Shown one piece after another: positions 5,308 through 19,694 of a DNA stretch of 32,000 bases. The stretch's first letter is position 1. Each line of letters begins with the position of its first letter. Source of the stretch: an uncultured Erysipelotrichaceae bacterium (lineage in GTDB: Bacteria > Bacillota_I > Bacilli_A > Erysipelotrichales > Erysipelotrichaceae). Where the stretch lies: positions 1 to 32,000 of the forward strand of contig CAYWGS010000001.1 of NCBI GenBank assembly GCA_964457525.1, given 5' to 3'. The notes under the pieces were generated by a model that had not been told where the DNA came from, ran no database searches, and saw nothing but the letters and a program-made list of their open reading frames with translations. The position numbers and the translations under genes are program-made.

Positions 5308-6408
5308 ATGAAGAAAATACTAGTAATATTTGGTACTCGACCAGAGGCAATAAAAATGTGTCCACTGGTACTCGAATTAAAAAAACGTACAGAATTTCAA
5401 ACGCTTGTATGTGTAACAGGTCAACATAAACAAATGTTGGATCAAGTGTTAGAGGTTTTTAATGTTGTGCCAGATTATGATTTAGCTATTATGAAAAACA
5501 ATCAAACCTTATTTGATGTGACAACTTCAATTCTTGAACACATCAAAGATATATTAGATGAAGTAAAACCTGATTTAGTGCTTGTCCATGGAGATACAAC
5601 AACAGCGTTCGCAAGTGCACTCGCAAGTTTCTACAATCAAATACCGGTTGGACATGTGGAAGCGGGACTACGAACATTTGATGTCTATTCGCCTTTTCCA
5701 GAAGAGTTTAATCGTCAAGCGATATCCATTATTTCAAAGTTTAATTTCGCGCCTACAGAATCTGCCTATCAGAATCTCATCAATGAAGGCTCTAAGAAAG
5801 AAAGCATTTTTATTACAGGAAATACAGCAATCGATGCGCTAAAATATACCGTTAATCGTACGTATCATCATGAAATATTTGATTGGCTACAAAATGATCG
5901 TCTTATATTAATTACGGCTCATCGAAGAGAAAATTTGGGTCAACCTTTAGTCAATATGTTTAAAGCGATTAAACGAGTCATGGATGAGTATCCGGATTTA
6001 AAAGCGGTTTATCCGATTCATATGAATCCAAAAGTTAGAAAAGTTGCGAATGAAATATTGGGAGATTCAGATCGAATTCGAATTATTGAACCACTCGATG
6101 TATTAGGTTTTCATCAATTTATGGCAAAGTCCTACCTCATTTTAACAGACAGTGGCGGTATACAAGAAGAAGCCCCAAGTTTAGGCAAACCTGTATTAGT
6201 GATGCGTGATACAACAGAAAGACCAGAAGGGATTCAGGCTGGAACACTTAAATTAGTGGGTACAGAAGAAGAATATATTTATCATTCTTTCAAGGAATTG
6301 ATCACAAATCCTGAAGCGTATAATCGAATGGCAAATGCCAATAATCCATATGGAGATGGTTTCGCAAGTCAGAAGATTGCGGATATCATCATTGAAAAAC
6401 TTATTTAG
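5308..6408 (+). CDS. wecB: UDP-N-acetylglucosamine 2-epimerase (non-hydrolysing)
   Basis: 366 aa. MKKILVIFGTRPEAIKMCPLV, VHGDTTT, HVEAGLRT, LILTDSGGIQEEAPSLGKPVLVMRDTTERPEG are hallmark WecB/MnaA motifs. Confidence 0.92.
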   Translation: MKKILVIFGTRPEAIKMCPLVLELKKRTEFQTLVCVTGQHKQMLDQVLEVFNVVPDYDLAIMKNNQTLFDVTTSILEHIKDILDEVKPDLVLVHGDTTTAFASALASFYNQIPVGHVEAGLRTFDVYSPFPEEFNRQAISIISKFNFAPTESAYQNLINEGSKKESIFITGNTAIDALKYTVNRTYHHEIFDWLQNDRLILITAHRRENLGQPLVNMFKAIKRVMDEYPDLKAVYPIHMNPKVRKVANEILGDSDRIRIIEPLDVLGFHQFMAKSYLILTDSGGIQEEAPSLGKPVLVMRDTTERPEGIQAGTLKLVGTEEEYIYHSFKELITNPEAYNRMANANNPYGDGFASQKIADIIIEKLI

Positions 6409-6431
6409 AAGGCAATATTTGTCTTCTTTTT
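6407..6431 (+). terminator. Rho-independent terminator after wecB
   Basis: 8-bp stem AGAAGGCA/TGTCTTCT with one G-U pair, a 5-nt loop and a T-run through 6431. Confidence 0.6.
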
Positions 6432-6526: not shown

Positions 6527-7327
6527 ATGAAGAAAGAAAGAGAAACGCTTAAAAGACAAATACGTTTTTCACATACGTATCGACATTTAAGAGTAGAGAA
6601 GCTAAAACAAAACCTGTATTTATGGTTTGTAATATTGCCATTATTTATTGTGCTTTTATTGAATTATGACAAACTAAGCTTATTTATCTCTGAGTTTGTT
6701 AGAAATATATTATCGACAGTTATTCCTCTATCGGATATGACGATCGTATCTTCATCGTTTATTCCGTATCTAGGAGATATCCATTACATTAGTCTACCAA
6801 CTGCGATTTATCAAAGCGGTTTAAATCTAATTACATTATTGATATCAGTTCTATTGTTTATCTTTGTATCAACAGGTAGAAGAAAAGGGCATCCATTTAG
6901 TATCTTTATTGAGATGGGTTTGTTTGTACAAATTATATCTTGTATCTTTTTTCTTTTTGCCTCAAATGATTTTCCTTATACAGCTACCATTTATTCAGAA
7001 CTCTACATTAAGCAACAAATCAGTTTATGGTTGTTCTTTTTTGTGATTATTGGATTGGTAACCGTATTATTAGGAAGTGGTTATTTTGTTTATAATCTGG
7101 TGTTTGTCCTTAAAATTATCAGTTACTCGTTCATTTATGGCGTACTACGATACATCACGTATTTATTTATTGTGAGCCAGATTTCAACCATCTATATGGC
7201 AACCTTATTCTTTACGCTTGGGCCATTATTTGATTTCTTGTATATTACTTATTTCTATGGTCGATATGTCAGTCGTATTATTGAGGTCAATGAGTCTAAA
7301 GAAAGTGAGGATATTTGGCAATGGTAA
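6527..7327 (+). CDS. Polytopic membrane protein (about 6-7 TM), family not recognised
   Basis: 266 aa and strongly hydrophobic. A GGGGGA RBS is present. The 3' end overlaps the GT2 start by 13 nt. Confidence 0.7.
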   Translation: MKKERETLKRQIRFSHTYRHLRVEKLKQNLYLWFVILPLFIVLLLNYDKLSLFISEFVRNILSTVIPLSDMTIVSSSFIPYLGDIHYISLPTAIYQSGLNLITLLISVLLFIFVSTGRRKGHPFSIFIEMGLFVQIISCIFFLFASNDFPYTATIYSELYIKQQISLWLFFFVIIGLVTVLLGSGYFVYNLVFVLKIISYSFIYGVLRYITYLFIVSQISTIYMATLFFTLGPLFDFLYITYFYGRYVSRIIEVNESKESEDIWQW

Positions 7328-8592
7328 TCAACTTTCTAAAGGGCTTTATGATCTTCTCTGTTATTTATATGTTAATTTATGCCATTCGACATATGGTGTA
7401 TTCTTTTAGTCGTATGTTTGGTAAACAACGTAAATACTATGATGATATTTATACCAGCGAAATGCCAAGTATATCGGTACTTATCCCAATGTATAACGAA
7501 GAAAAAGTATTGGATAATGTTCTCGATTCATTGGTTGCCTGTGAATATGATCGTGATCGTTTAGAGATTATTCCAATCAATGATTCATCTACAGATCGTA
7601 CAAAAGAATTGTTGGATGCTTATCATGCACGATATGAATTTATTCGTCCAATTCATCGTAATTCAAGTTTAAGAGGTAAACCTGCTGCGCTTAATGATGC
7701 GATGAAGATTGCTAAAGGTGACATTATTATCGTGTTTGATGCGGATTATCGTCCCAATAAGTATATGTTAAAACAGTTAGCTCTTGCCTTTTTAGATCCT
7801 GCGACAGGTGCGGTAATGGGACGTGTTATTCCATACAATTCCAGTAAGAATTTACTCACTCGTTTGCTTAGTTTAGAAAGAGCGGGTGGATATCAAGCTG
7901 ACCAACAAGCACGATACAACATGGGAACACTTCCACAATATGGGGGTACCGTTGGTGGTTTTAGACGTGAACTCGTTATGGAATCCGGTGGATTTAACCC
8001 ATATGTATTAGCAGAGGATACAGAACTAACCTTTAGACTTTACTTAAATGGTTGGAAGATTGTGTATGCGAATTCCGCTGAATGTTATGAAGAGGTACCT
8101 GAGACCTATGCAATTCGCGGTAAACAAGTTCGTCGATGGTCGCGTGGTCATAATAATGTGGCAATTCGATATTTCTTCCCGTTGTTGTTTTCAAAGAATC
8201 TAAAATTATTTGAGAAGTTGGACGGTTTATTACTCCTACTTATTTATATGGGTCCAACCATCTTTATGTTTAGTTTTATTATTTCATTGATTCTATTCTT
8301 CAGTGGTGAGATGAACTTAATCTCTACATGGTGGGTTCTTATATTCATTGGTGCGACCAATTCACTGGGCAACTTTGCGCCTTTCTATGAGATTTCTGTT
8401 GCGGTAATTGTCGATGGTAAGAATAACGATATTAAACTCGTTCATTTAATGTTATTTAGTTTCTATTATTATGTATGGCATATCTCACTTGGTTTCTTTG
8501 AAGCAATCATCGATCTCGTCACAAAACGACATGTTAAGTGGAATAAAACGGATCGATTCTTGGTTAAACCTAAAGATGGAGGTGCAAAATGA
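7315..8592 (+). CDS. Processive family-2 glycosyltransferase (membrane-embedded polysaccharide synthase, PgaC/IcaA/BcsA-core-like)
   Basis: 425 aa. One N-terminal TM and several C-terminal TM segments. Motifs: VLIPMYNEE, NDSSTDRT, FDAD (DAD 7738-7746), LAEDTELTFRL, QVRRWSRG (Q-x-x-R-W at 8125-8139). Confidence 0.88.
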   Translation: MAMVINFLKGFMIFSVIYMLIYAIRHMVYSFSRMFGKQRKYYDDIYTSEMPSISVLIPMYNEEKVLDNVLDSLVACEYDRDRLEIIPINDSSTDRTKELLDAYHARYEFIRPIHRNSSLRGKPAALNDAMKIAKGDIIIVFDADYRPNKYMLKQLALAFLDPATGAVMGRVIPYNSSKNLLTRLLSLERAGGYQADQQARYNMGTLPQYGGTVGGFRRELVMESGGFNPYVLAEDTELTFRLYLNGWKIVYANSAECYEEVPETYAIRGKQVRRWSRGHNNVAIRYFFPLLFSKNLKLFEKLDGLLLLLIYMGPTIFMFSFIISLILFFSGEMNLISTWWVLIFIGATNSLGNFAPFYEISVAVIVDGKNNDIKLVHLMLFSFYYYVWHISLGFFEAIIDLVTKRHVKWNKTDRFLVKPKDGGAK

Positions 8593-10340
8593 TTTTAATC
8601 TATGGACTTATCATTATCTATGTCATTTTATTAATCCTACCCTTGTTAGGTGGTTTAATTTCGTATCTTAAGGATAAAGCTCAACCAATTCATATTGATC
8701 AAACTCGTATAAAAGATCCACGTTATTTTGCGAAGTCGTTTACGCGTTTATTTAATGAAAAATGGGAGAATTATGATCGTAAAAGTGATTTGTTCTTCTC
8801 CAAGAAAGAGAAAGTCATCTTAGCAGATGAAACAGAAATCTTTGAAGAAGAGTGTAATGGAATCGTAGTGGCAGAACGTCATGACTTTATTCCAAATCAA
8901 AATATTAATTTTAATAAGGAAATAATGTCATTAAATCACGCATATGTTTATGGTGATATTCAACTACGTGCCTTAAAATCCCAAAAGGATTGTGTCTTAG
9001 GCAAAGGTATTAATGTCGTTCGTTGGGTGGATGCGGAAGGTTATCTTCTGGTTCATGATCACTGTAATCTTGGATTAAGTGCGAGTAGTGCAAGTGTATT
9101 AACAGTTGGCAAGAATGTAAACTTTAAGCGACTTTATGCCCCTATTATTAACTTAGGGATGACTAAAATCGTTCCTCACGGTCATTCAAGTTATAAGTAT
9201 GCATTAGTTCCTTCATTAGTACGCAAACATGAACATGACATAAATGATTCTATGGTTGATGAAAATCGCATAGCGAACTTTTCTGTTGTATCCAAGAAGG
9301 AAGTTCTAATTCATGAAAATATAACCTTACAAGGACATATCCATTCGGACAAAGGAATAAGAATTCAAGATAACAGTTTTATCTGTGGGAATGTTTTCGC
9401 AAATAGAGATATTTATGTTGGAAAGAATGTTGTGATACTCGGGAATGTATTTACCCATGGGAATATCTATTGTGAAGATGGCGTTACCATCGGTCAGGAA
9501 CATCACACCAGTTCGATTGTTGCTGGTGGTAGAATTGATTTCAGCTTAAATTCAATGGTTTATGGTTATGTTCACAGTGAAGAAGGTGGAGTTGTTTATA
9601 AACTAAGTATTTCTGATGATGATATTCGAAATGAAGTGGCGAATGAGGAACGTCGTTATGGAATTAGTGAAGAAGATAAACTTCATCATGTTGCACATAC
9701 GATGAATGAATATAATTATGAACATCCTGTTGGATTTAGGTATGATTTATCCTTAACTGAAGTCATTATTCCAGAAGGTGTTGAGTTCATACGCAGAAGT
9801 ATGTTCTTTGGTTGTAAAAATCTTGTAAAAGTTGTTATTCCAAAAAGTGTTAGAGTCATTGAAGACTATGCCTTTTTCGGTTGTGAAAGTTTAAAAGAGA
9901 TTGAGTTTGAATCATCCATTCATATTCAATCAATTGGTAAATCTGCTTTTGAGAATTGTACATCTTTAGAGAATTTTGTTCTTCCTGAGTTTGTAAGAAA
10001 AATAGAATCCAGTACATTTTCAAATTGTAGAAATCTCAAAAACATAACCATTCATAAAGACGCTTATCTAGACACAATTGATAGTCATGCCTTTAAGGAT
10101 TGTGTTAGCTTAGAACAATTTATCTGTCCAGATTTTGTAAGTTCACTTGGACAAAGTGTTTTCTATGGCTGTATTAATTTAAAAGAGATTCATTTACCTA
10201 AAGCCTTATTGTGCTTGGGTGATTATGCGTTCTATCAATGTGATCAAGTCAATTCTAAAAATATAAGTAAAGAAATACTTAATCTTATGAAAAAATCAAA
10301 AGGAAATCCAGATTGGGCAGAGGAAGTTAATTATGCTTAA
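8589..10340 (+). CDS. Single-TM protein with a bactofilin-like beta-helical middle region and seven C-terminal BspA-type leucine-rich repeats
   Basis: 583 aa. N-terminal TM MILIYGLIIIYVILLILPLLGGLISYL. The middle region reads GNVFANRDIYVGKNVVILGNVFTHGNIYCEDGVTIG. LRR units follow. A GGAGG RBS is present and the ATGA start overlaps the GT2 stop. Confidence 0.75.
   Translation: MILIYGLIIIYVILLILPLLGGLISYLKDKAQPIHIDQTRIKDPRYFAKSFTRLFNEKWENYDRKSDLFFSKKEKVILADETEIFEEECNGIVVAERHDFIPNQNINFNKEIMSLNHAYVYGDIQLRALKSQKDCVLGKGINVVRWVDAEGYLLVHDHCNLGLSASSASVLTVGKNVNFKRLYAPIINLGMTKIVPHGHSSYKYALVPSLVRKHEHDINDSMVDENRIANFSVVSKKEVLIHENITLQGHIHSDKGIRIQDNSFICGNVFANRDIYVGKNVVILGNVFTHGNIYCEDGVTIGQEHHTSSIVAGGRIDFSLNSMVYGYVHSEEGGVVYKLSISDDDIRNEVANEERRYGISEEDKLHHVAHTMNEYNYEHPVGFRYDLSLTEVIIPEGVEFIRRSMFFGCKNLVKVVIPKSVRVIEDYAFFGCESLKEIEFESSIHIQSIGKSAFENCTSLENFVLPEFVRKIESSTFSNCRNLKNITIHKDAYLDTIDSHAFKDCVSLEQFICPDFVSSLGQSVFYGCINLKEIHLPKALLCLGDYAFYQCDQVNSKNISKEILNLMKKSKGNPDWAEEVNYA
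9762..10250 (+). repeat. Seven tandem 23-25-aa BspA/LRR_5-type repeats encoded inside CDS 8589..10340
   Basis: Units: VIIPEGVEFIRRSMFFGCKNLVK / VVIPKSVRVIEDYAFFGCESLKE / IEFESSIHIQSIGKSAFENCTSLEN / FVLPEFVRKIESSTFSNCRNLKN / ITIHKDAYLDTIDSHAFKDCVSLEQ / FICPDFVSSLGQSVFYGCINLKE / IHLPKALLCLGDYAFYQCDQV. Confidence 0.8.
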
Positions 10341-11382
10341 ATCTAAAACGATGAGTTTTATACTCCTTATCCTATTTCTTGGTGTAAGTGTCCTATTCAC
10401 GATGGTTAATAATTCGATGAAACTAAGCTCTCCAGAAAATACGATTATTGAGGAAAAAGTTGGATTAAAGGGATTACCCTACGGTGTTGAGTTATCCCAA
10501 ACGATTCTATTAGAAGATGATTTATATATCTATTATGAAGATCGAATTGTGGAGAAGTATTTTAATGATTCTAGTATCAATAAAGAATCGATTGAACGTA
10601 TAAATTTGTTCTTCAATTCATTACCTGATTCCATTCATAAAACAATTTCTTTAACCCCAATGGCAATAACCTATGAGAATGTTAAGGTAAATCAAGATTC
10701 TATTGAAGCACAATCTGAGATAAAAGAAGGTTTAAACTCAAACATCAATTGGATTGATATTCATCCAATATATGAATCAAAAAAGGAAGAGTACTTATAC
10801 TTCCGTACAGATCCCCGAATTACGAGTTTAGCCGCGTATTATATTGCTCAAGAGTTTCTATCTACGAAAGGCATTAACATCATTCCTTTATCCGATTATC
10901 GAGAAGATCGTAGGGCAAAGGTATCTGGTATTTATATGTATTTACCAGGCTCACCTTTAAACCCAAGTCATGAAGATACAGTAGTGAGTTATTTCCTTGA
11001 TGGAGCCACAAACCATCAGCTTGTGACAACTCGTAAATCGGATGATGTGACTGAAACCTTTGAATCCCCAACGATTGCGATTTCTCGACGAGGTTTAGAT
11101 ATATTTGTTGAGAGTAACTTATCAGATTCAATTCTCTATGGAGATGGAACAGATAATACAATTATCGTGATTGGAGATTACAACGCAAAAGTAGTGAGCA
11201 CTTGGTTAACACCTTACTATGAACATGTGATTGTGATTAACTCTGCTTTCTATACAAAGTCACAATCAGAATTCTTTGAATTATTTGAAACGTATAATAT
11301 TACAGATGTATTGTTAGTAGAATCGATTAAGAATATCGGTGATTTGAGTGAGAATAGTAAATTGAAACGTATCTATGAGTAG
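10333..11382 (+). CDS. Membrane-anchored exported protein, DHHW/AlgX-AlgJ-like with a degenerate catalytic motif
   Basis: 349 aa with an N-terminal anchor SFILLILFLGVSVLFTMV. LYFRTDPRITSLAAYYIAQEF aligns by eye to the family signature Y-x-K-T-D-H-H-W-T-x-x-G-A-Y-x-A, with DHHW replaced by DPRI (10810-10821). Confidence 0.6.
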   Translation: MLKSKTMSFILLILFLGVSVLFTMVNNSMKLSSPENTIIEEKVGLKGLPYGVELSQTILLEDDLYIYYEDRIVEKYFNDSSINKESIERINLFFNSLPDSIHKTISLTPMAITYENVKVNQDSIEAQSEIKEGLNSNINWIDIHPIYESKKEEYLYFRTDPRITSLAAYYIAQEFLSTKGINIIPLSDYREDRRAKVSGIYMYLPGSPLNPSHEDTVVSYFLDGATNHQLVTTRKSDDVTETFESPTIAISRRGLDIFVESNLSDSILYGDGTDNTIIVIGDYNAKVVSTWLTPYYEHVIVINSAFYTKSQSEFFELFETYNITDVLLVESIKNIGDLSENSKLKRIYE

Positions 11383-11397: not shown

Positions 11398-12006
11398 ATG
11401 AGTCAAAGTCTTATTGAATTATTCCACTATTTTAGCCAAGTTACACGACTCGATTTAACTTCTTTTAATTCGCTTCCAATCAATTTATTTTTAAGTTTAT
11501 TCTTTTGCTTATGTGCTTTCTTTGGTTATAAATCAGTACGATATCTATTCTCTTTAATAATATTTACTCTCACAATACGACTTATAACCTTCATCTTAGA
11601 AGGTAGAACAGAGTGGATTTACATCGCTACTACATTCTCTGTATTATCCGTTGTGTTTGCATTTATGGCTTATTTCTCAAAACGAATAAGTGTGTTAGTT
11701 GTGGTTGGGTTATTGGTTTTTGGTAGTTTAAATGCATTTAATCTACATTGGATATTTGTTTTATTCATAAGTATTGGTTTAGGTCTTATCGCATATTTCT
11801 ATCCACTGATAACAGTGATACTTATTACAAGTACACTCGGTTCTTATGAATTATTACAGGGTATGGATTATTCAAACTCCAATTACATCTATATGCTTAT
11901 TGGTTTAATCATCATTAGCCTCTTATTTCAGTTTCTAAGTAATCAAGAAGGAAGAGTCTTTCTTAAAAAGATCAAAGGTAAATTGTATGGATCAAGTTTA
12001 TCGTAA
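11398..12006 (+). CDS. Polytopic membrane protein (about 5-6 TM), family not recognised
   Basis: 202 aa and hydrophobic throughout. An AGGAG RBS is present. The 3' end overlaps the VTC gene start by 20 nt. Confidence 0.65.
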   Translation: MSQSLIELFHYFSQVTRLDLTSFNSLPINLFLSLFFCLCAFFGYKSVRYLFSLIIFTLTIRLITFILEGRTEWIYIATTFSVLSVVFAFMAYFSKRISVLVVVGLLVFGSLNAFNLHWIFVLFISIGLGLIAYFYPLITVILITSTLGSYELLQGMDYSNSNYIYMLIGLIIISLLFQFLSNQEGRVFLKKIKGKLYGSSLS

Positions 12007-12664
12007 AGAACTTAAATATGTTATTTCACTTGAGAAAGTGTTTCGAATACGAAACCGATTATCTTCTTTTTTAGACTATGACACCTATTCAAATGAAGAG
12101 GGATATATCGTTCGAAGCTTATATTTTGATTCGATTAACGACAAGGATCTATTTGATACATTATATGGATTAAATGATAAACACAAAATTCGATTACGAA
12201 TTTACTCAGTTCATGATCAACAAGTCAAACTAGAATGGAAACGTAAAACAGGTTCAGATTCACATAAGGTTACTCTAATCATTACAAGAGAGAATGCGGA
12301 ATCGATGATAAATGGAGATTATGAGTTTCTTAGATCGATGGAAAATGATCAAGCACTTTCAATCTATCACATTTTGAAAAGAGAAGCGTATAGTCCAAGA
12401 ACGATTGTGGAATATAAACGTGTTGCGTATGTGCATCCAATAAGCAATATCAGAATATGTTTTGATTATCAACTTAAGGCGAGCTTAACACCCTTTAATT
12501 TCTTTGAAGAAAACATTGGGGTTTTACCAATCTTATCCGTTGATCAAGCTGTATTAGAAGTGAAATACGATGATTATCTACCGACATTGATTAAGGAAGT
12601 TCTATCACCGATGGATGAATTATCACAAGCAAACAGTAAATACGTTCAAGCAAGAATGTTATAA
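11987..12664 (+). CDS. VTC-domain (polyphosphate polymerase-type, triphosphate-tunnel) protein
   Basis: 225 aa with no TM. RKELKYVIS...GYIVRSLYFDS...HKIRLRIY...VKLEWKRKTG...LEVKYD matches the bacterial VTC (PF09359-type) pattern, including alternating acidic/basic tunnel strands. Confidence 0.75.
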   Translation: MDQVYRKELKYVISLEKVFRIRNRLSSFLDYDTYSNEEGYIVRSLYFDSINDKDLFDTLYGLNDKHKIRLRIYSVHDQQVKLEWKRKTGSDSHKVTLIITRENAESMINGDYEFLRSMENDQALSIYHILKREAYSPRTIVEYKRVAYVHPISNIRICFDYQLKASLTPFNFFEENIGVLPILSVDQAVLEVKYDDYLPTLIKEVLSPMDELSQANSKYVQARML

Positions 12665-12676
12665 AAGGAGAAAAAT

Positions 12677-13348
12677 ATGAATGATTTGATACAACAGTTT
12701 TTACTAAATGACCAATCACTTAGTACGACAACAATTCTCATTAATAATAGTGTCGCATTGGTTGGGGCTTTGTTTATTATGTTTACATACAAAGCGAGTT
12801 ATTCAGGTTCAGCGTATAGTCGTAAGTTCAATGTTTCCTTAGGGATGATTACACTCATTATTACAATGATTATGAGTTTAATTAGCAGTAATATTGCATT
12901 GTCCTTAGGTTTAGTTGGTGCTCTTTCCATTATCCGTTTCAGAACAGCGGTTAAGGATGTTAGAGATGCGACATTTATCTTCTGGTCCATTGCTTTAGGG
13001 ATTGGATGTGGTGTATCTGAATATTTACTCGTAAGTATTGGATCTTTATTCATCTTTGTTTTCCTTATTCTTCTTAAACAACTTGGGACAAATGAAAGAC
13101 ATTTACTCGTAGTTCGTTGTCAAGCAAACGCTCAAAGTCGTGTTGAAAGTATCGTAAGTGAAACCTTTAAGAAGGATGCTCGTTTATCAATGAAAAATGC
13201 AACACCAAACAGTGTTGAATATGTTTACGCTTTAGTGGAATGGGATAAGAAGTCTAAAAACAAAGCAAATATTGTGGAAAGCTTGCTTAAAGTTGAAGGC
13301 GTTCTTAATGTAAATCTTGTAGAACAAACGGATGATATTGGTCGTTAA
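12677..13348 (+). CDS. DUF4956-family membrane protein
   Basis: 223 aa. The membrane half carries LGLVGALSIIRFRTAVKDVRDATFIFWSIALGIGCG, the DUF4956 signature as I recognise it, followed by a soluble C-terminal domain. An AAGGAG RBS is present. Confidence 0.7.
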   Translation: MNDLIQQFLLNDQSLSTTTILINNSVALVGALFIMFTYKASYSGSAYSRKFNVSLGMITLIITMIMSLISSNIALSLGLVGALSIIRFRTAVKDVRDATFIFWSIALGIGCGVSEYLLVSIGSLFIFVFLILLKQLGTNERHLLVVRCQANAQSRVESIVSETFKKDARLSMKNATPNSVEYVYALVEWDKKSKNKANIVESLLKVEGVLNVNLVEQTDDIGR

Positions 13349-13351
13349 CAA

Positions 13352-14713
13352 ATGAAAAAAATTATTGGACTCGGTTTGATACTCTTATTTTTAGGAAGCT
13401 CATGGATTGGGGGATTTTTCGTTGCGGAAGATCACAAAACTCAACCTGCTCAAACAGTCCTACCTTGTGATGTTAATTGTACAAATCTTCCAATTATCCT
13501 GATTGATACTAAGGGTGAAGTTATTAAAAAGGATTCTAAGGTCAATGTCGAAGTTAAGGTCATAGATAATGAAGATAAGAATTCGATTGAACTAACACCA
13601 GATTTTATCAGTGACGCAACAATTAAGTATCGTGGTAATTCATCCTATGGTACTTTTGATAAGTTTCAATATCGTGTTGAGTTCTTTGATGATATTGCGA
13701 AAGATGATAAGCGCAATTATCCATTGTTTGGCATGACTAGAGAGAGTGATTGGGTCTTATATGGTCCATTCTTAGATCGAAGTTTATTACGTAATCGACT
13801 CATGTATGGCTTATCCAAAGATTTACTTGAATGGGCACCGGATACACGTTTCTTTGAACTCTATGTAGATGATGAATATCAAGGGGTATATCTTGCGGTT
13901 GAACCCATCACAGCGAGTGAAAATAGAATTGGTTTAAATCAGTTTGGGCTATTATCAGGAGAAACACCTTATATTGTTCGAAGAGATCGTGTTGGGACGA
14001 ATCATCAAGTAATACAAACGTATGGAGAAATAATGGGATACACCTCAAATGAGTTGAGTATCGATTATCCAGGTATAAATAATCTTACATCCCAACAATA
14101 CGATTGGATTACACAGGATGTTAGTCGATTTGAAGAGACACTTTATTCAGATTATTTTGATCATCCTGAACTCGGTTATGAACACTTAATAAATATGTCT
14201 TCATTCGTGGATTACTTTATTCTCAATGAATTTGCGATGATTACGGATTCAAGTGAATTATCTACATATGTATATAAGGATCTTGGTGGTAAATTAACTT
14301 TTACAGTCTGGGACTTTAATAATGGGTTTAATAATTATCAATGGACAGATCAATCGTATGAACGCTATTTTAACTTAGATGCGAACTGGTTTGATCGACT
14401 TATTCAAGATCGTAAGTTTGTCAGTTCTATTGTGGAGCGTTATCGTACATTACGTAAGGGAATACTCAGTGATGCTGCACTCATGAATCGAATTGATCAA
14501 GAGGTCTTAGACTTAGGAGATGCGGTCAATCGCAACTTTGAAGTCTGGGGCTACACGTTTAATCAAAATCTTTTATCTAAGGATAGTAATGGATTAATAC
14601 GTGATCCTAAATCATATGAAGACGCAATCAATCAATTAAAGGATACGATTCTAAAACGACTCAATTATATGGATAATACGATAGAAGATTTGTATACTTA
14701 TTGTATTAACTGA
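13352..14713 (+). CDS. CotH-family atypical kinase-like protein, exported or membrane-anchored
   Basis: 453 aa with an N-terminal hydrophobic anchor KIIGLGLILLFLGSSWIGGFFVA. IKYRGNSSY...FQYRVEF, DWVLYGPFLDRSLLRNRLMYGLS, YVDDEYQGVYLAVEPI, VWDFNNGF are CotH (PF08757-type) blocks. Confidence 0.8.
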   Translation: MKKIIGLGLILLFLGSSWIGGFFVAEDHKTQPAQTVLPCDVNCTNLPIILIDTKGEVIKKDSKVNVEVKVIDNEDKNSIELTPDFISDATIKYRGNSSYGTFDKFQYRVEFFDDIAKDDKRNYPLFGMTRESDWVLYGPFLDRSLLRNRLMYGLSKDLLEWAPDTRFFELYVDDEYQGVYLAVEPITASENRIGLNQFGLLSGETPYIVRRDRVGTNHQVIQTYGEIMGYTSNELSIDYPGINNLTSQQYDWITQDVSRFEETLYSDYFDHPELGYEHLINMSSFVDYFILNEFAMITDSSELSTYVYKDLGGKLTFTVWDFNNGFNNYQWTDQSYERYFNLDANWFDRLIQDRKFVSSIVERYRTLRKGILSDAALMNRIDQEVLDLGDAVNRNFEVWGYTFNQNLLSKDSNGLIRDPKSYEDAINQLKDTILKRLNYMDNTIEDLYTYCIN

Positions 14714-14719: not shown

Positions 14720-15913
14720 ATGAGAAAAACAAAAATAAGTGTCACAATTATATTCGTATTACTACTCTTATTGAGTAGTTTTTTCCTTTATCGAAAGAAT
14801 GCTCAAGAAAAGATACCAGTATATCAATTAGAGATTAATTATTATCAAAGTATTATTCATCATGAACAGGCTTGGTTAGATTCAACTCAACTAGATAATG
14901 GAGCGTATCCATTTAGACCCCTTGTAAACAATCGTGCAGATGTAAATCCATATTTCTCATCCATGGCTGCCTATAGTCTATTACTTGGGAACACCTTTTA
15001 TTCAGATAATGTGTATGAATACATGGCTTGGTTATTTACCCAATTGAATACAAGTTCAGAAGATCCTTATCAAATCGATGGAACACTCAGTAATATACGT
15101 ATGACTCAAGAGAATGGTCAAATCAACGAAGAGAAGTTTGACTATGATTCAGTTGATTCCTATACTGCATTATTCATAATTCTGTTAGATTATGCTTATG
15201 ATACCGATCCTAGATATGAGTTCTATCAAACCAATGAAGGATCGATCATACGTTTGTTCAAAGCTTTATTATCAACTCGTGCTGAGAATGGATTATCCTA
15301 TGTGAGTGTTGGAAATAAAACACAATATACCATGGATAATGTGGAAGTAAACTATGCCATTAAAAAGGGGATTAACCTTTTAAACAATTTACTTGAACTA
15401 TCCAATAATCAAGAACTTAAAGAGATACAAATAGAACTTGAAGAATGGTTAATTGATAATACACAAGCCATAGAAACAATTCTATGGAATCCTGCCCAAC
15501 AGAAATATCGTATCGCAATCGATAAGAATGGAAATGAAGTAGAATTTAAATCATGGGATAATTTCTATCCAGATGCGATGGCACAATTATTTCCAATTGT
15601 ATTCAATGTAATCGAACCAGACTCAGAGCGAGCGAAAGAACACTACATACAATTTGTATCGAACTATTCATGGGAAGATTTCAAGTTCAGAGAAGGATTC
15701 TATTGGACTGTTGTTTCAACGATTGGCGCAATGATGGATGATACTGAGAGAGTTAAGACTTATTTAGATTACTATCAAGAACATATTATGAGTAATCATG
15801 ATTATCCAATCTACAATGCGGAAGTTGCTTGGATTATTCAGACTTGTCAAATTATGATCGATAAGTATGAAGATAAAATTGACCAAGTCGATCCATTAAA
15901 ACTCTTTCACTAA
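14720..15913 (+). CDS. Membrane-anchored exported protein of unknown function (possibly an alpha/alpha-toroid, glycan-active fold)
   Basis: 397 aa with an N-terminal anchor ISVTIIFVLLLLLSSFFLY. The AWLDSTQLDNGAYPF motif is reminiscent of alpha/alpha-barrel repeats, so the fold call is weak. It is the last gene before the hairpin at 15912. Confidence 0.6.
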   Translation: MRKTKISVTIIFVLLLLLSSFFLYRKNAQEKIPVYQLEINYYQSIIHHEQAWLDSTQLDNGAYPFRPLVNNRADVNPYFSSMAAYSLLLGNTFYSDNVYEYMAWLFTQLNTSSEDPYQIDGTLSNIRMTQENGQINEEKFDYDSVDSYTALFIILLDYAYDTDPRYEFYQTNEGSIIRLFKALLSTRAENGLSYVSVGNKTQYTMDNVEVNYAIKKGINLLNNLLELSNNQELKEIQIELEEWLIDNTQAIETILWNPAQQKYRIAIDKNGNEVEFKSWDNFYPDAMAQLFPIVFNVIEPDSERAKEHYIQFVSNYSWEDFKFREGFYWTVVSTIGAMMDDTERVKTYLDYYQEHIMSNHDYPIYNAEVAWIIQTCQIMIDKYEDKIDQVDPLKLFH

Positions 15914-15936: not shown

Positions 15937-15992
15937 AAATATAGAGTGTTATGTTACTATATCACTATACGATATATCACGAGGCGAGTGTC

Positions 15993-18035: not shown

Positions 18036-19694
18036 ATGACAAAAGTAACACGAAGTCGATTGACTACAAGTGCTTTATTGATTTTGCTTATTGTCTTTTT
18101 TTATTTCGTTAGTCAAATCGACACTCGAGAAGATTTTTCGTTACGGTCACATAATGCATACGAGTTAAATGAAGGGTGGACAGTTACTTATGATGACGAA
18201 ACATTAAGTAATATTTCCCTTCCTTATGACCTCAATTTGAAACCTAGTACGAAATACAGTATTCGTACTGAATTACCTAATCTTGAACCGGATCGAAATA
18301 CACTACTAATACGGTCATCCATGCAAGATATGTGGGTCTATCTCGATAATAAATTGATTTATGAACAGATTAAACCTGAGAAAGGATTAATCGATACACC
18401 ATCCGCAAGTGTTTGGTTAACTGTAAATTTACCTGTTAATTATCAAGGTAAAGAATTAAGAATTGATATTAGTTCACCGATATCATCCTTTTCTGGAGTC
18501 ATTAATTCCATTAAATTAGATTCCAAAGATGTCTTATTATTCGGTTTAATAGAGGAACAACTTTTCGGATTAGTTGTGATTAGTTTGCTTCTATTTACAG
18601 GAGCAGGATTGATTCTTTTATCGCTTTTCCTAAAAATAAGTGAAGATTCAAGAATATTGTACTTAGGCTTTGTGGCCTTTACTACCAGTTTATGGTTATT
18701 GGCAGAAAGTCGATTATTGCAATTCATAACAGGTAACCGATTTATATTAGGTTCTTTTGCGTATATTATGATTCCACTCATGTCAATTTTCTTTGCGCTT
18801 TATGTTAGAGAAGCAGTAATTACAGATAAACGATTTAAAAAATATATCTCGTATTTTGTCTATGTTATGCAAGTATCTATCTTGTTAAGTATTCTTTTAC
18901 AGGTTTTAGGGATACAATCATATATTCAAAGTATGAATTATGAGTTAATAATGATTTTGATTGGAGCGATAACTGCGTGTGGATTTATGATTGTGGAAGT
19001 AAGAAATTATCAAAATTTAACCGCAAAGCGATTAGCTAAATTTACAATTGTATTATTGGTCAGCTTACTCTTGGAAGTTGTGTCTTTCTACTTAGGGACA
19101 TTTCAATTTACCTCTTCTTTCTTAAGAGTAGGTAGTTTTATCTTCTTCTTATTACTCACAATCGATACGATCAGTTATGTTCGTGAAAGTATGCAACAAA
19201 GAAGTGAAACTGCTTTACTCGAAAAGTTAGCATATAAGGATTTCTTAACAGGTGGGTTAAACCGGACTTCGTATGAGAAAGGCCTTGAAAAGAGAATTGA
19301 TTCTAAACAAAGTTTTAGACTTAATTTGATGGATTTAAACTATCTAAAGTACATAAATGATAACTTTGGTCATAATGTAGGGGATGAAGCGATCAAACAT
19401 GTTTATGAATCTCTCGAGTTAGCTTTCAAGGATATTGGAACATGTTATCGAATTGGTGGGGATGAATTTTCAGTTATTATGGATAATATTGATCCTATCA
19501 TCAATCAAGAAGCGATCAATCGATTTAATCAATTGTTAGATGAAATCAATCAAACCTTTGTATTCCAACTTGAAGTCGCAATTGGTACAGATATTTATAT
19601 GGTAGACAAGTGGGAACAATTCTCCAAGTTCTATCATCATGTGGATCAAAAAATGTACGAAGATAAAACAAAAATAAAATCAGCGAAGAGCTGA
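18036..19694 (+). CDS. Diguanylate cyclase: 7TMR-DISMED2-like extracellular domain, seven TM segments and a GGDEF domain
   Basis: 552 aa with a signal anchor. LNEGWTVTYDD...LLIRSSMQDMWVYLDNKLIYE is DISMED2-like. Seven hydrophobic helices follow. The C-terminal FLTGGLNR...GHNVGDEAIK...YRIGGDEFSVIM has an intact GGDEF. Confidence 0.85.
   Translation: MTKVTRSRLTTSALLILLIVFFYFVSQIDTREDFSLRSHNAYELNEGWTVTYDDETLSNISLPYDLNLKPSTKYSIRTELPNLEPDRNTLLIRSSMQDMWVYLDNKLIYEQIKPEKGLIDTPSASVWLTVNLPVNYQGKELRIDISSPISSFSGVINSIKLDSKDVLLFGLIEEQLFGLVVISLLLFTGAGLILLSLFLKISEDSRILYLGFVAFTTSLWLLAESRLLQFITGNRFILGSFAYIMIPLMSIFFALYVREAVITDKRFKKYISYFVYVMQVSILLSILLQVLGIQSYIQSMNYELIMILIGAITACGFMIVEVRNYQNLTAKRLAKFTIVLLVSLLLEVVSFYLGTFQFTSSFLRVGSFIFFLLLTIDTISYVRESMQQRSETALLEKLAYKDFLTGGLNRTSYEKGLEKRIDSKQSFRLNLMDLNYLKYINDNFGHNVGDEAIKHVYESLELAFKDIGTCYRIGGDEFSVIMDNIDPIINQEAINRFNQLLDEINQTFVFQLEVAIGTDIYMVDKWEQFSKFYHHVDQKMYEDKTKIKSAKS

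What the first reader, a model, noticed from the sequence alone, without database searches (positions are those of the whole stretch)
11987..14713. VTC / DUF4956 / CotH triad: candidate membrane polyphosphate machine feeding an extracytoplasmic kinase
Seen: a 225-aa soluble protein with the VTC (Vtc4-catalytic-type triphosphate tunnel) pattern is followed by a DUF4956 membrane protein. Next comes a CotH-family protein with an N-terminal signal/anchor, so its kinase-like domain is predicted to lie outside the cytoplasm. Established: the yeast VTC complex couples polyP synthesis by a tunnel domain to translocation through associated TM subunits. Bacillus CotH is an atypical protein kinase. Inference: VTC plus DUF4956 could be a bacterial analogue of a coupled polyP polymerase/translocon. 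An exported CotH has no obvious ATP supply, so polyP or another exported phosphodonor might be its co-substrate, with the GT2 product or a surface protein as the target. No function has been demonstrated for this triad as far as I know.
Basis: partly seen in the sequence, partly recalled or inferred. Interest (0 to 1): 0.7.

Follow-up and report, generated by a model that had tools for sequence, protein, structure and literature searches.

The report
Membrane polyphosphate-enzyme plus outward kinase module
Three adjacent genes in a gut-type bacterium encode a yeast-like polyphosphate-making enzyme, its membrane partner and a kinase that faces outside the cell; the trio is real, widespread and already noted in the literature, but its function, possibly supplying phosphate energy to the cell surface, is still untested.

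Summary
Observation confirmed. Window 11987-14713 (an uncultured Erysipelothrix MAG) encodes a VTC-domain protein (Pfam 1.4e-31), a DUF4956 membrane protein (2e-15) and an N-terminally anchored CotH protein (6e-51), separated by 12- and 3-nt gaps.

- **VTC:** keeps every Vtc4 tunnel residue I could map. Its model matches yeast Vtc4 (E 3e-15).
- **CotH:** its model matches B. cereus CotH (E 9e-15). It keeps the catalytic Asp, the metal Asp and a conserved Lys, but has Ser where the kinase Asn sits.
- **Co-occurrence:** in 80 species' loci VTC and DUF4956 co-occur 80/80 (adjacent 77/80). CotH is present in 68-71 of 74 informative loci.
- **Fusions:** DUF4956-VTC, mem202-VTC and DUF4956-TM-CotH polypeptides exist, which argues for a membrane complex.

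The trio is not new. It was published as an accessory set of Gram-positive pel operons, function unknown. New here: it is not Pel-specific. It sits beside cellulose-type, chitin-synthase-type and PgaC-like GT2 systems, or alone beside a two-component system. In this window a fourth membrane protein (11398-12006) belongs with it.

A Streptococcus intermedius VTC deletion had no phenotype, while the other two deletions did. Interest 0.6.

The parts
11398..12006 (+). 202-aa multi-pass membrane protein ('mem202', weakly TM7S3/TM198-like). Probably a second membrane partner of VTC.
   Evidence: About 6 hydrophobic segments. No Pfam or NCBIfam hit. Its stop overlaps the VTC start by 20 nt. Homologous to the N-terminal half of P0222 (BLASTP 2e-7). 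P0222 and P0223 are mem202-VTC fusion proteins inside the same operon type. Its L089 homolog carries a weak PF13886 hit.
11987..12664 (+). Soluble 225-aa VTC-domain protein: a Vtc4-type triphosphate-tunnel enzyme and candidate polyphosphate polymerase.
   Evidence: PF09359 1.4e-31. A profile of 31 homologs hits yeast Vtc4 3g3q at 1e-11 and Vtc2 only at 7e-6. AF2 pLDDT 91.8. The top 13 Foldseek hits are all Vtc4/2/3 (3g3r_B E 3e-15, TM 0.75), with generic TTM enzymes at 1e-8 or weaker. Residue equivalents are R6=R196, K10=K200, R69=R264, R71=R266, K85=K281, K94=K294, R145=R361, R156=R373 and E191=E426, all invariant or nearly so.
12677..13348 (+). DUF4956 membrane protein (223 aa): an MgtC-like TM domain plus a soluble C-terminal domain. 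Obligate partner of VTC.
   Evidence: PF16316 2.1e-15; MgtC PF02308 1.2e-5, below its cut-off; NCBIfam MgtC/SapB 1.5e-5, below cut-off. TM segments at 17-139. Present in 80/80 VTC loci and adjacent in 77/80, with a median gap of 14 nt. Fused to VTC in P0216-18, P0221 and P0239, and to CotH in P0327.
12935..12967 (+). Near-invariant 'RFRTAVKDVRD' loop of DUF4956 (residues 87-97), following the 'LSLGxVGALSI' helix. Predicted to face the cytoplasm if the topology is 5-TM, N-out, C-in.
   Evidence: Alignment of 79 DUF4956 proteins, 24-90% identical to the window protein. The N-out topology is inferred from the signal-peptide + PF06439 + DUF4956 fusions and from the DUF4956-TM-CotH fusion.
13352..14713 (+). 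CotH-family kinase-fold protein (453 aa) with an N-terminal signal peptide or anchor, so the catalytic domain is predicted to lie outside the cytoplasm.
   Evidence: PF08757 6e-51. AF2 pLDDT 87, pTM 0.85. Foldseek 5jda E 8.7e-15, TM 0.76 on the target. Hydrophobic segment 3-26 after MKK. 66/66 triad-linked relatives have an N-terminal hydrophobic segment.
14246..14323 (+). CotH catalytic loop and metal-binding motif: D299, S304/T305, then W320-D321-F-N323-N324.
   Evidence: Global profile alignment to B. cereus CotH 5jd9 and a MAFFT alignment of 69 CotH proteins. D299 = Bc D223 = Bs D228 (catalytic; D228Q is inactive). D321 = Bc D246 = Bs D251 (D251A is inactive). The kinase Asn is replaced by Ser/Thr, and the second Asp of WDYD is Asn. 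All are invariant in the clade.
14720..15913 (+). 397-aa N-terminally anchored protein of unknown family, the last gene of the operon.
   Evidence: No Pfam, NCBIfam or PDB sequence hit. N-terminal TM at 3-26. Homologs follow the trio in L002 and L004. 6-nt gap after CotH.
6527..11382 (+). Upstream half of the same operon: a 266-aa multi-pass membrane protein (6527-7327), a PgaC/IcaA-like processive GT2 (7315-8592), an anchored bactofilin-like + LRR_5 protein (8589-10340) and an anchored DHHW (AlgX/SGNH-like) protein (10333-11382).
   Evidence: Pfam. NCBIfam best hit PgaC_IcaA 1.2e-42, below cut-off. The same gene order occurs in L002, L003, L010, L084, L087, L088 and L090. Terminator-like hairpin at 6407-6427 before it.
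5308..6408 (+). UDP-GlcNAc 2-epimerase, the likely precursor-supply gene for the polysaccharide.
   Evidence: PF02350 1e-122. An epimerase also neighbours the operon in L002, L004, L010, L084 and L088.
18036..19694 (+). Membrane-bound GGDEF diguanylate cyclase, a possible c-di-GMP input to the locus.
   Evidence: PF00990 2.8e-23. GGDEF or GGDEF-EAL genes flank the trio in many loci.

Best explanation
The three genes, together with the 202-aa membrane protein just upstream, form a conserved, portable module that plugs into synthase-type exopolysaccharide (biofilm) loci.

Proposed mechanism:
1. The soluble VTC protein is held at the inner face of the membrane by DUF4956, and here also by mem202. 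It polymerises the gamma-phosphate of ATP into polyphosphate, as yeast Vtc4 does.
2. The membrane partner or partners pass the chain outward.
3. The membrane-anchored, outward-facing CotH enzyme uses the chain as phosphoryl donor to phosphorylate an extracytoplasmic acceptor. The most likely acceptor is the nascent polysaccharide made by the neighbouring GT2, or a surface protein.

Shown here: domain identities, folds, retention of catalytic residues, hydropathy-based topology, operon structure, co-occurrence and gene fusions.
Inferred: polyP synthesis, translocation, use of polyP as donor, and the identity of the acceptor.

My confidence differs by layer. That these proteins work together as one membrane-associated unit: about 0.8. 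That VTC makes polyP: about 0.55. The full chain ending in polyP-driven CotH phosphorylation: about 0.3.
For: - **VTC catalysis:** it keeps the equivalents of Vtc4 K200, R264, R266, K281, K294, R361, R373 and E426. It is structurally closer to Vtc4 than to any other TTM enzyme.
- **VTC-DUF4956 pairing:** 80/80 loci, adjacent in 77/80, median gap 14 nt.
- **Rosetta-stone fusions:** DUF4956-VTC in two independent lineages (P0216-18/21; P0239). mem202-VTC (P0222, P0223) inside window-type operons. DUF4956-TM-CotH (P0327), with the extra helix needed to put CotH outside.
- **CotH linkage:** present in 68-71 of 74 informative loci, median gap 13 nt. In the reciprocal test, 4/4 diverse clade members have VTC and DUF4956 directly upstream. 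In L081 a 1061-aa CotH directly precedes the DUF4956-VTC fusion.
- **CotH location and catalysis:** 66/66 have an N-terminal hydrophobic segment. Lys, catalytic Asp and metal Asp are kept in 66-67 of 69.
- **Independence from glycan type:** the module sits next to four unrelated synthase systems or none. That fits a generic phosphoryl-supply role rather than one glycan's chemistry.
- **Precedent (established knowledge):** in yeast the Vtc4 tunnel domain is fused to TM helices that form the polyP channel (PDB 7ytj and 8i6v appear among the hits).
Against: - **Genetics:** in S. intermedius the VTC deletion (SIR_1593) had no aggregation phenotype. The DUF4956 deletion raised Pel and the CotH deletion lowered it. 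An obligate linear pathway does not predict that.
- **DUF4956 as a pore:** its conserved membrane residues are small or polar (G, S, A, N, T), not a cationic pore lining. Its only detectable relatives, MgtC/SapB, are not known channels. It is not homologous to Vtc1-type TM subunits.
- **Donor chemistry:** to my knowledge no protein-kinase-like fold enzyme is known to use polyP.
- **CotH active site:** the kinase Asn is missing. Two triad-linked CotHs (L023, L026) have lost both Asps.
- **VTC-DUF4956 without CotH:** seen in L049, L056 and L082.
- **Method limits:** topology rests on hydropathy only. No multimer model could be run.
Confidence: 0.3

Rival explanations
1. Regulatory module. VTC and the MgtC-like DUF4956 act on the cytoplasmic side, making or sensing polyP or triphosphate, or titrating ATP and phosphate. 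In that way they tune the activity of the neighbouring polysaccharide synthase. CotH separately phosphorylates surface or secreted proteins, using whatever extracellular nucleotide is available. PolyP never leaves the cell.
For: DUF4956 is weakly MgtC-like, and Salmonella MgtC is a regulator of phosphate and ATP homeostasis (as summarised in PMC12345266). Deleting DUF4956 raised Pel and deleting CotH lowered it, while deleting VTC had no phenotype. That suggests separable, partly opposing roles. The authors of the preprint suggested polyP may stay in the cytoplasm. The loci are rich in c-di-GMP genes and two-component systems.
Against: It does not explain why an outward-facing kinase is genetically locked to two cytoplasm-side proteins in about 92-96% of loci, or why it is fused to DUF4956 in P0327. 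It does not explain why the module also occurs with no synthase nearby (10 loci). It leaves CotH's phosphate donor unexplained.
Confidence: 0.25
2. PolyP exporter whose product is itself the end product. VTC and DUF4956 (with or without mem202) deposit polyphosphate in the wall or matrix as a polyanion, for cation binding, matrix cross-linking or host interaction. CotH does not use it as a donor. Instead it anchors, caps or trims the chain, or phosphorylates something unrelated.
For: The evidence for a membrane VTC complex is the same as above. VTC-DUF4956 can occur without CotH (L082, L049, L056). Extracytoplasmic metallophosphoesterase-like or MBL-fold proteins occur in some loci. The CotH active site is atypical, with Asn replaced by Ser.
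Against: CotH keeps the catalytic Asp, the metal Asp and the Lys under strong conservation, which argues for real phosphotransfer chemistry. The phosphoesterase neighbours are sporadic: PAP-like in 4 loci plus L089, MBL in 12. No measurement of extracellular polyP exists for any carrier.
Confidence: 0.2
3. The VTC-domain protein is not a polymerase but another kind of triphosphate-tunnel enzyme, such as a tripolyphosphatase, a nucleotide cyclase or an NTP phosphohydrolase. The trio would then do something unrelated to polyP, with the membrane partners only localising it.
For: The TTM/CYTH superfamily is functionally diverse, and YgiF, CyaB-type cyclases and thiamine triphosphatase all appear as weaker structural hits. 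No bacterial VTC-domain protein has been characterised in the searched literature. The protein lacks the SPX and TM parts of Vtc4.
Against: It passes the VTC-specific Pfam model at 110 bits. It matches Vtc4 better than Vtc2 (1e-11 against 7e-6). It keeps the Lys equivalent to Vtc4 K200 and all the other tunnel residues. The 13 best structural hits are all Vtc proteins, about seven orders of magnitude ahead of other TTMs.
Confidence: 0.15
4. The adjacency is fortuitous: three unrelated genes that happen to be neighbours in this genome.
For: None found.
Against: The same order and tight spacing hold across 80 species-level genomes, drawn from at least 576 species with a VTC relative and spanning several orders of Bacillota plus a spirochaete and a gammaproteobacterial MAG. 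Fusion proteins exist. The set has been reported independently.
Confidence: 0.01

Closest known systems
CotH / 'polyphosphate polymerase' / DUF4956 (/DUF4832) accessory gene set of Gram-positive pel operons (Whitfield et al. 2020, PLoS Pathog, PMC7112168; S. intermedius SIR_1594/1593/1592, mBio 2025, PMC12345266)
   Same: It contains the same three families, contiguous and co-directional, attached to a synthase-dependent exopolysaccharide locus. CotH is predicted to be secreted or anchored, VTC cytoplasmic, and DUF4956 a 4-5 TM protein with a soluble C-terminal (ACT-like) domain. Function is unknown in both.
   Different: The window contains no pel genes at all. The partner here is a PgaC-like GT2 with LRR_5, DHHW and mem202 proteins. 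The gene order is VTC-DUF4956-CotH, whereas the S. intermedius numbering implies CotH-VTC-DUF4956. This CotH has no FN3 domain, and there is no DUF4832 hydrolase. The mBio paper states the synteny was not found outside Pel loci. In my survey, none of the 68 classifiable loci among the 80 had Pel-type markers: they were cellulose-type, chitin-synthase-type, window-type or had no synthase. I had no dedicated PelF probe, so this rests on Pfam scans of representatives.
Clostridium perfringens NELoc-2 (necrotic-enteritis-associated locus; Lepp et al. 2010, PMC2879425)
   Same: It has VTC-domain proteins, a 222-226-aa membrane protein (annotated 'tubulin/FtsZ', in the DUF4956 position) and CotH, followed by a ~685-aa protein, a HEAT-repeat protein and a GT2 'chitin synthase'. 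That is the commonest architecture in my survey, with 25 loci plus 4 partial.
   Different: The window has a different synthase set: no HEAT protein and no ~700-aa protein. NELoc-2 has a duplicated VTC-membrane pair split by a resolvase.
Yeast VTC complex (Vtc4/Vtc3/Vtc1; PDB 3g3q, 7ytj, 8i6v)
   Same: The catalytic tunnel domain has the same fold and the same basic and acidic tunnel residues. The enzyme is obligatorily tied to membrane-spanning partners, in some bacteria by fusion, as in Vtc4.
   Different: There is no SPX domain. The TM partners (DUF4956 and the TM198-like mem202) are unrelated to the Vtc1-type TM domain. Export would be across the cytoplasmic membrane to the outside rather than into a vacuole. 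No activity has been shown. Sequence identity is about 16-19%.
Bacillus CotH spore-coat kinase (PDB 5jd9/5jda; B. subtilis CotH D228, D251)
   Same: The atypical kinase fold is the same (TM 0.76 on the target). The catalytic Asp, the metal Asp and a conserved N-lobe Lys are retained.
   Different: Identity is 13-14%. The window protein has an N-terminal membrane anchor or signal peptide, so it is extracytoplasmic, whereas Bacillus CotH acts in the mother cell, where ATP is available. The kinase Asn is replaced by Ser/Thr and WDYD by WDFN. The host is not known to sporulate (my own knowledge of Erysipelothrix).
MgtC/SapB family membrane proteins
   Same: Weak sequence similarity over the TM domain and the same overall plan of a TM bundle plus a cytoplasmic ACT-like domain.
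   Different: Scores are below both curated cut-offs (26.1 against 31.4 bits; 24.7 against 214 bits). DUF4956 has its own near-invariant LSLGxVGALSI-RFR-A-KD-D motif. MgtC is not linked to VTC or CotH.

Membership tests
VTC domain / Vtc4-type polyphosphate polymerase | Match to Pfam PF09359 above the gathering score | tested here: met
   110.3 bits against a cut-off of 23, residues 6-222 on profile positions 2-230 of 235.
VTC domain / Vtc4-type polyphosphate polymerase | Triphosphate-tunnel (eight-stranded beta-tunnel) fold closest to Vtc4 | tested here: met
   AF2 pLDDT 91.8. Foldseek ranks 1-13 are all Vtc4/Vtc2/Vtc3 (best E 3.1e-15, TM 0.75). Other TTM enzymes score 1e-8 or weaker.
VTC domain / Vtc4-type polyphosphate polymerase | Tunnel residues of Vtc4: K200, R264, R266, K281, K294, R361, R373, E426 (S457/K458) | tested here: met
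   The profile alignment to 3g3q/8i6v gives K10, R69, R71, K85, K94, R145 and R156. All are invariant or at least 90% conserved in 31 homologs. E191 aligns to E426 only in a sub-threshold HMMER segment. The S217-K218 equivalence to S457-K458 is motif-level only.
VTC domain / Vtc4-type polyphosphate polymerase | Vtc4 architecture: N-terminal SPX domain and C-terminal TM domain, with Vtc1-type TM subunits | tested here: not met
   The protein is 225 aa with a single domain and no hydrophobic segment. No SPX or Vtc1-type (DUF202) protein is encoded in the window. The membrane partners are DUF4956 and mem202 instead.
VTC domain / Vtc4-type polyphosphate polymerase | ATP-dependent polyphosphate synthesis | not testable with these tools
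   Needs an enzyme assay. No bacterial VTC-domain protein has been characterised in the searched literature.
CotH kinase family | Match to Pfam PF08757 above the gathering score, full length | tested here: met
   174.3 bits against 23.8, profile positions 1-322 of 322.
CotH kinase family | Atypical protein-kinase fold as in B. cereus CotH | tested here: met
   AF2 pLDDT 87.2, pTM 0.85. Foldseek 5jda E 8.7e-15, TM 0.61 (query) and 0.76 (target) over 422 columns.
CotH kinase family | Catalytic Asp (B. subtilis D228) and metal-binding Asp (D251) | tested here: met
   D299 and D321 align to B. cereus D223 and D246 in a global hhalign and in MAFFT. The B. subtilis numbering comes from a sequence I recalled from memory, which has Asp at exactly 228 and 251 and matches 5jd9 at E 7e-142. 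The mutant data are cited from PMC7821199. Both residues are invariant in the clade. The C-lobe aligns only in global mode; local HMMER and hhalign cover the N-lobe only.
CotH kinase family | Kinase Asn of the catalytic loop ('HN' in Bacillus CotH) | tested here: not met
   The aligned position is S304 (MAFFT) or T305 (hhalign). It is Ser in about 58 of 69 triad-linked CotHs and Asn only in about 9 long clostridial forms.
CotH kinase family | ATP-binding Lys of the N-lobe | tested here: inconclusive
   Invariant K104 aligns with the first Lys of the Bacillus 'EKKSY' motif. I could not read the structure paper to confirm which Lys binds ATP.
CotH kinase family | Spore-coat (mother-cell cytoplasm) location | tested here: not met
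   N-terminal hydrophobic segment at 3-26 after MKK, and the same in 66/66 relatives. Prediction by hydropathy only; SignalP and DeepTMHMM were not available.
DUF4956 (PF16316) | Pfam match above the gathering score; multi-TM N-terminal domain plus soluble C-terminal domain | tested here: met
   57.3 bits against 30.6. Hydrophobic segments at 17-139 and a soluble part at 140-223. Shares the family's near-invariant motif.
MgtC/SapB family | Match above the curated cut-off | tested here: not met
   Pfam 26.1 bits against 31.4. NCBIfam 24.7 against 214. A distant relative at most.
Pel accessory gene set (Whitfield 2020) | CotH, VTC-type 'polyphosphate polymerase' and DUF4956 genes contiguous in one operon | tested here: met
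Pel accessory gene set (Whitfield 2020) | Contiguity with pelDEA(DA)FG | tested here: not met
   No Pel-type family (GT4 PelF, PelG, PelD, PelE, PelA deacetylase) was found among the ORFs scanned. ORFs 27772-28197 and 29538-30995 were not scanned. The adjacent synthase is a GT2.
Pel accessory gene set (Whitfield 2020) | DUF4832 glycoside hydrolase as fourth gene | tested here: not met
   The gene after CotH (14720-15913) has no Pfam, NCBIfam or PDB match.

The most novel reading that the evidence does not exclude
Bacteria possess a VTC-type polyphosphate polymerase coupled to non-Vtc1 membrane partners (DUF4956, TM198-like) that exports polyP across the cytoplasmic membrane. There it serves as the ATP-independent phosphoryl donor for an outward-facing CotH-fold kinase, which phosphorylates exopolysaccharide or surface proteins. 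This would be a third bacterial polyP synthase, the first bacterial polyP exporter and the first polyP-driven kinase of the protein-kinase fold. It would be a portable module used by at least four kinds of biofilm polysaccharide systems in hundreds of species.
Probability: 0.25. Interest if true: 0.9.

Novelty: new variant of a known kind. Interest (0 to 1): 0.6.

Why it matters
- **PolyP synthesis:** bacterial polyphosphate is currently attributed to PPK1 and PPK2, and VTC is treated as a eukaryotic invention. A Vtc4-like enzyme with all catalytic residues intact is present in at least 576 bacterial species and always paired with a membrane protein. If active, it would change that picture.
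- **Energy outside the cell:** how kinases and other phosphotransferases outside the bacterial cytoplasm obtain a phosphate donor is an open question. This module offers a concrete, testable answer.
- **Biofilms and disease:** the module sits in loci tied to biofilm formation and virulence, namely C. perfringens NELoc-2 and S. intermedius Pel-dependent abscess persistence. Its product could be a previously unnoticed phospho-modification of biofilm polysaccharides.
- **Experimental design:** showing that the trio is not Pel-specific redirects future work. Its role should be sought in something common to cellulose-like, chitin-synthase-like, PNAG-like and Pel systems, and in the stand-alone versions.

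Tried and rejected
- **Direct sequence searches of the PDB:** the VTC protein found nothing; only a profile reached Vtc4. For CotH, phmmer, profile hmmsearch and local hhalign aligned only the N-lobe. The catalytic C-lobe needed a global hhalign and MAFFT, supported by the Foldseek match, so that mapping is less rigorous than a structural superposition. Model coordinates are not exposed by the tools.
- **Nguyen et al. 2016 (CotH structure paper):** it could not be read. I took D228 and D251 from PMC7821199. I obtained the 5jd9 sequence by baiting the PDB with a B. subtilis CotH sequence recalled from memory. Only the database sequence was used for mapping; the recalled one served only for numbering.
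- **An extracytoplasmic phosphatase as a regular fifth component:** rejected. The purple-acid-phosphatase-like protein occurs in only 4 loci plus L089. The common ~600-aa neighbour is a GGDEF-EAL protein.
- **PhoR/PnpS-like annotation of the adjacent two-component system:** below curated cut-offs, so only a hint.
- **P0219 (GT2 1-165 joined to DUF4956 mid-TM1, on a 2-kb contig):** judged a deletion or assembly artefact, not a real fusion.
- **Promoter and terminator scan:** fewer promoter-like sites than in shuffles, so uninformative apart from a hairpin after the epimerase.
- **Pel loci in the survey:** none were seen among the 80 best loci, but I had no dedicated PelF probe. The statement rests on Pfam scans of representatives.
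- **The 397-aa protein:** no match in any library.

Full report
**What is in the window**

Coordinates 11987-14713 hold three co-directional ORFs of 225, 223 and 453 aa, separated by 12 and 3 nt. All three pass Pfam's gathering scores:

| ORF | Family | E-value |
|---|---|---|
| 11987-12664 | VTC (PF09359) | 1.4e-31 |
| 12677-13348 | DUF4956 (PF16316) | 2.1e-15 |
| 13352-14713 | CotH (PF08757), full length | 6e-51 |

They are the distal part of a longer same-strand gene row:

- a 266-aa multi-pass membrane protein (6527-7327)
- a processive GT2 whose best named relative is the PNAG synthase PgaC/IcaA, below cut-off (7315-8592)
- an anchored protein with bactofilin-like repeats and BspA-type LRR_5 repeats (8589-10340)
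- an anchored DHHW protein (10333-11382)
- a 202-aa multi-pass membrane protein, 'mem202' (11398-12006), whose stop overlaps the VTC start by 20 nt
- the trio
- an anchored 397-aa protein with no match anywhere (14720-15913)

A UDP-GlcNAc 2-epimerase lies upstream and a membrane GGDEF protein downstream. The source is an uncultured Erysipelothrix MAG: locus L001 is 100% identical. Among the ORFs scanned, none belongs to a Pel-type family. ORFs 27772-28197 and 29538-30995 were not scanned.

**The VTC protein**

A single-sequence search of the PDB found nothing. A profile of 31 homologs hit yeast Vtc4 at 1e-11 and the inactive paralog Vtc2 only at 7e-6. The chain 8i6v_E carries native numbering, so the alignment can be read directly. 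It gives R6=R196, K10=K200, R69=R264, R71=R266, E83=E279, K85=K281, K94=K294, R145=R361, R156=R373 and D160=D377. E191 pairs with E426, but only in a sub-threshold segment. All these positions are invariant or at least 90% conserved in the bacterial family.

The AlphaFold model is confident (pLDDT 91.8). Its 13 best PDB matches are all Vtc4, Vtc2 or Vtc3 (best E 3e-15, TM 0.75). Generic triphosphate-tunnel enzymes such as YgiF and CyaB follow only at about 1e-8.

The protein has no SPX domain and no TM segment. It is therefore a bare Vtc4-type catalytic tunnel. That it makes polyphosphate is inference. I found no characterised bacterial VTC-domain protein in the literature.

**The CotH protein**

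The model (pLDDT 87, pTM 0.85) matches B. cereus CotH 5jda at E 8.7e-15, with TM 0.76 on the target. The next hits are weak matches to small-molecule and lipid kinases.

Local sequence methods aligned only the N-lobe. To map the catalytic C-lobe I first recovered the deposited 5jd9 sequence, using a B. subtilis CotH sequence recalled from memory as bait (E 7e-142). I then made a global profile alignment and a 69-sequence MAFFT alignment. The two agree:

| Window residue | B. cereus | B. subtilis | Role |
|---|---|---|---|
| D299 | D223 | D228 | catalytic Asp; D228Q is inactive |
| D321 | D246 | D251 | metal-binding Asp; D251A is inactive |
| K104 | first Lys of 'EKKSY' | same motif | conserved N-lobe Lys |
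| S304 / T305 | N228 | N233 | the kinase Asn is lost here |
| N323 | D248 | D253 | second Asp of 'WDYD', here 'WDFNN' |

All of these window residues are invariant in the clade.

Across 69 triad-linked CotHs, the Lys, catalytic Asp and metal Asp are kept in 66-67. The Asn is Ser in about 58, and is retained only in a long clostridial form. Two sequences (L023, L026) have lost both Asps.

The window protein begins MKK followed by a 20-residue hydrophobic stretch. All 66 full-length relatives also have an N-terminal hydrophobic segment. The catalytic domain is thus predicted to lie outside the cytoplasm. This rests on hydropathy only.

**DUF4956**

It has 4-5 hydrophobic segments (17-139) and a soluble C-terminal part. 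Similarity to MgtC/SapB is weak and below cut-off. An alignment of 79 family members (24-90% identity to the window protein) shows a near-invariant LSLGxVGALSI-RFR-A-KD-D motif and FW...G...G.

Two kinds of fusion constrain its topology. Proteins with a signal peptide and a PF06439 domain in front of DUF4956 place its N-terminus outside. A DUF4956-TM-CotH fusion places its C-terminus inside. Together they indicate a 5-TM, N-out, C-in topology like that of MgtC. That would put the basic RFR-KD-D loop on the cytoplasmic face.

**Co-occurrence**

I analysed the best 80 loci.

- DUF4956 is present in 80/80 and directly follows VTC in 77/80, with a median gap of 14 nt.
- CotH directly follows DUF4956 in 60 of the 69 loci with enough sequence.
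- Several apparent exceptions are divergent CotHs by Pfam (L058, L063, L065, L074, L079), or have CotH elsewhere in the operon.
- Overall, 68-71 of 74 informative loci carry CotH. Clear exceptions are L049 (a GH130 fusion protein instead) and L056 (a Cthe_2159 carbohydrate-binding protein instead).
- In the reciprocal test, four diverse members of the window's CotH clade (about 50% identity) all have VTC and DUF4956 immediately upstream. Three of them sit in a complete window-type operon.

**Fusions**

A concatenated VTC+DUF4956 query brought natural fusions to the top of the hit list. I confirmed them by sequence and by Pfam.

- **DUF4956 then VTC in one polypeptide.** Seen in two independent lineages: P0216-18/21 (458 aa) and P0239 (507 aa, found in NCBI and ENA). 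The VTC catalytic motifs are intact.
- **mem202-like TM domain then VTC.** Seen in P0222 (456 aa) and P0223 (536 aa, two samples). These lie inside window-type operons L083-L085. mem202 matches the N-terminus of P0222 at 2e-7.
- **DUF4956, one extra TM helix, then CotH.** Seen in P0327. This is a single partial protein on a 3-kb MAG contig, so it carries low weight.

In L081 a 1061-aa multidomain CotH directly precedes a DUF4956-VTC fusion, which compresses the trio into two genes. In L082 the fusion stands alone among housekeeping genes.

These fusions argue that VTC is a membrane-tethered enzyme, as in eukaryotes, and that DUF4956 bridges it to CotH.

**Genomic company**

The trio is portable. 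The 80 loci classify as follows:

| System next to the trio | Loci |
|---|---|
| BcsA-like GT2-PilZ with MBOAT and AlgX-like genes, often GH5 and an MBL-fold protein (acetyl-cellulose-type) | 26 |
| ~700-aa unknown protein, HEAT-repeat protein, chitin-synthase-like GT2, often a GGDEF-EAL protein (the C. perfringens NELoc-2 order) | 25, plus 4 partial |
| No synthase; trio alone beside an OmpR-type two-component system with unrelated flanks | 10 |
| Window type | about 5 |
| Too short or unclassified | 12 |

The two-component system's best named relatives are the phosphate sensors PnpS and PhoR, but below cut-off. The tested accessory-protein families mostly have an N-terminal hydrophobic segment: 100% for the U705, MBL and PAP-like proteins and 85-89% for the HEAT, GH5 and AlgX-like proteins.

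**What is already known**

- Whitfield et al. 2020 described cotH, a 'polyphosphate polymerase', DUF4956 and DUF4832 as accessory genes contiguous with pelDEA(DA)FG in streptococci, clostridia and bifidobacteria.
- The 2025 mBio paper on S. intermedius describes SIR_1594 (a secreted CotH-FN3 protein), SIR_1593 (Vtc4-like) and SIR_1592 (a 4-TM MgtC-like protein with an ACT domain). It reports that deleting 1592 raised Pel, deleting 1594 lowered Pel, and both reduced aggregation in sputum medium, while deleting 1593 had no phenotype. It also states that the three-gene synteny was not found outside Pel loci.
- NELoc-2 listed the same genes in 2010 without linking them.

The gene set is therefore known and its function is not. 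The claim of Pel exclusivity is contradicted by this window and by the survey.

**Mechanism**

The anatomy best fits a trans-membrane phosphoryl unit. A Vtc4-type enzyme is tethered inside by DUF4956 and mem202, and a kinase-fold enzyme is tethered outside. All are genetically locked together, and the module is independent of which polysaccharide is made.

I give about 0.8 to 'one membrane-associated functional unit', about 0.55 to 'VTC makes polyP', and about 0.3 to the full chain.

The evidence against the full chain:

- The VTC deletion in S. intermedius was silent, and the DUF4956 and CotH deletions had opposite effects on Pel.
- DUF4956 lacks an obviously cationic membrane core, and its only relatives are not channels.
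- No kinase of this fold is known to use polyP (my own knowledge).
- CotH has lost the kinase Asn.
- VTC-DUF4956 occurs without CotH in a few loci.

The rival explanations are a cytoplasm-side regulatory role (0.25), polyP export as an end product in its own right (0.2), and a non-polymerase tunnel enzyme (0.15).

**Verdict**

The finding is a new variant of a known but functionally unexplained gene set. It occurs here in a non-Pel context, with a fourth membrane component and with fusion evidence for a complex. Interest is 0.6.

Noticed in passing
window 8589-10340 (+): A 583-aa N-terminally anchored protein combines bactofilin-like beta-helix repeats (PF04519, sub-threshold) with BspA-type LRR_5 repeats. 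It is conserved directly after the GT2 in every window-type operon seen (L002, L003, L010, L084, L087, L088, L090). Its role in the polysaccharide system is unknown.
   Followed up: partly
window 11398-12006 (+): A 202-aa multi-pass membrane protein overlaps the VTC start by 20 nt. Its homologs are fused to VTC in P0222 and P0223, and it is weakly TM7S3/TM198-like.
   Followed up: yes
window 15951-16310 and 16273-17331 (+): A PadR-family regulator gene overlaps a DUF2812 membrane-protein gene immediately downstream of the operon. It may be a local regulator pair. No link to the operon was tested.
   Followed up: no
window 18036-19694 (+); L083 1-3557: A membrane GGDEF protein lies downstream of the operon. 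In L083 the same operon type sits next to a 1676-aa Pkinase-AAA_16-GAF-GGDEF protein, and chitin-synthase-type loci often carry GGDEF-EAL proteins. This suggests c-di-GMP control of these loci.
   Followed up: partly
P0257 and about 45 related proteins, Anaerolineales/Chloroflexota MAGs: A large family of ~450-aa proteins has a signal peptide, a PF06439 (3-keto-disaccharide hydrolase / LamG-like) domain and a C-terminal DUF4956. DUF4956 therefore also pairs with extracytoplasmic domains other than CotH, and its N-terminus must face outward.
   Followed up: partly
L023 7428-9002 and the CotH gene of L026: Two triad-linked CotH proteins have Gly at both the catalytic and the metal-binding Asp positions, so they are likely pseudokinases. 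Each is followed by an anchored metallo-beta-lactamase-fold protein.
   Followed up: no
L058, L062, L063, L065, L074, L075 (Clostridium, Tissierella, Proteocatella): The trio stands alone with a longer (570-730 aa) CotH that keeps the canonical 'HN' catalytic loop. It lies next to an OmpR-type two-component system whose best (sub-threshold) NCBIfam hits are the phosphate sensors PnpS and PhoR. This hints at phosphate-responsive control.
   Followed up: partly
L018 16468-18336, L021, L022, L032; L089 3570-5504: An anchored Metallophos / purple-acid-phosphatase-like protein of ~620-644 aa lies near the trio in a few loci. It is too sporadic to be a core component, but it could be an extracytoplasmic (poly)phosphatase.
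   Followed up: partly
window 4226-5197 (-) and 5308-6408 (+): A TupA-like ATP-grasp gene is divergently placed next to the UDP-GlcNAc 2-epimerase. It may be a further cell-surface polymer modification gene.
   Followed up: no
P0219: An apparent GT2(1-165)-DUF4956 chimera on a 2-kb contig. The junction falls mid-domain in both parts, so it is probably a deletion or an assembly artefact rather than a real fusion.
   Followed up: yes
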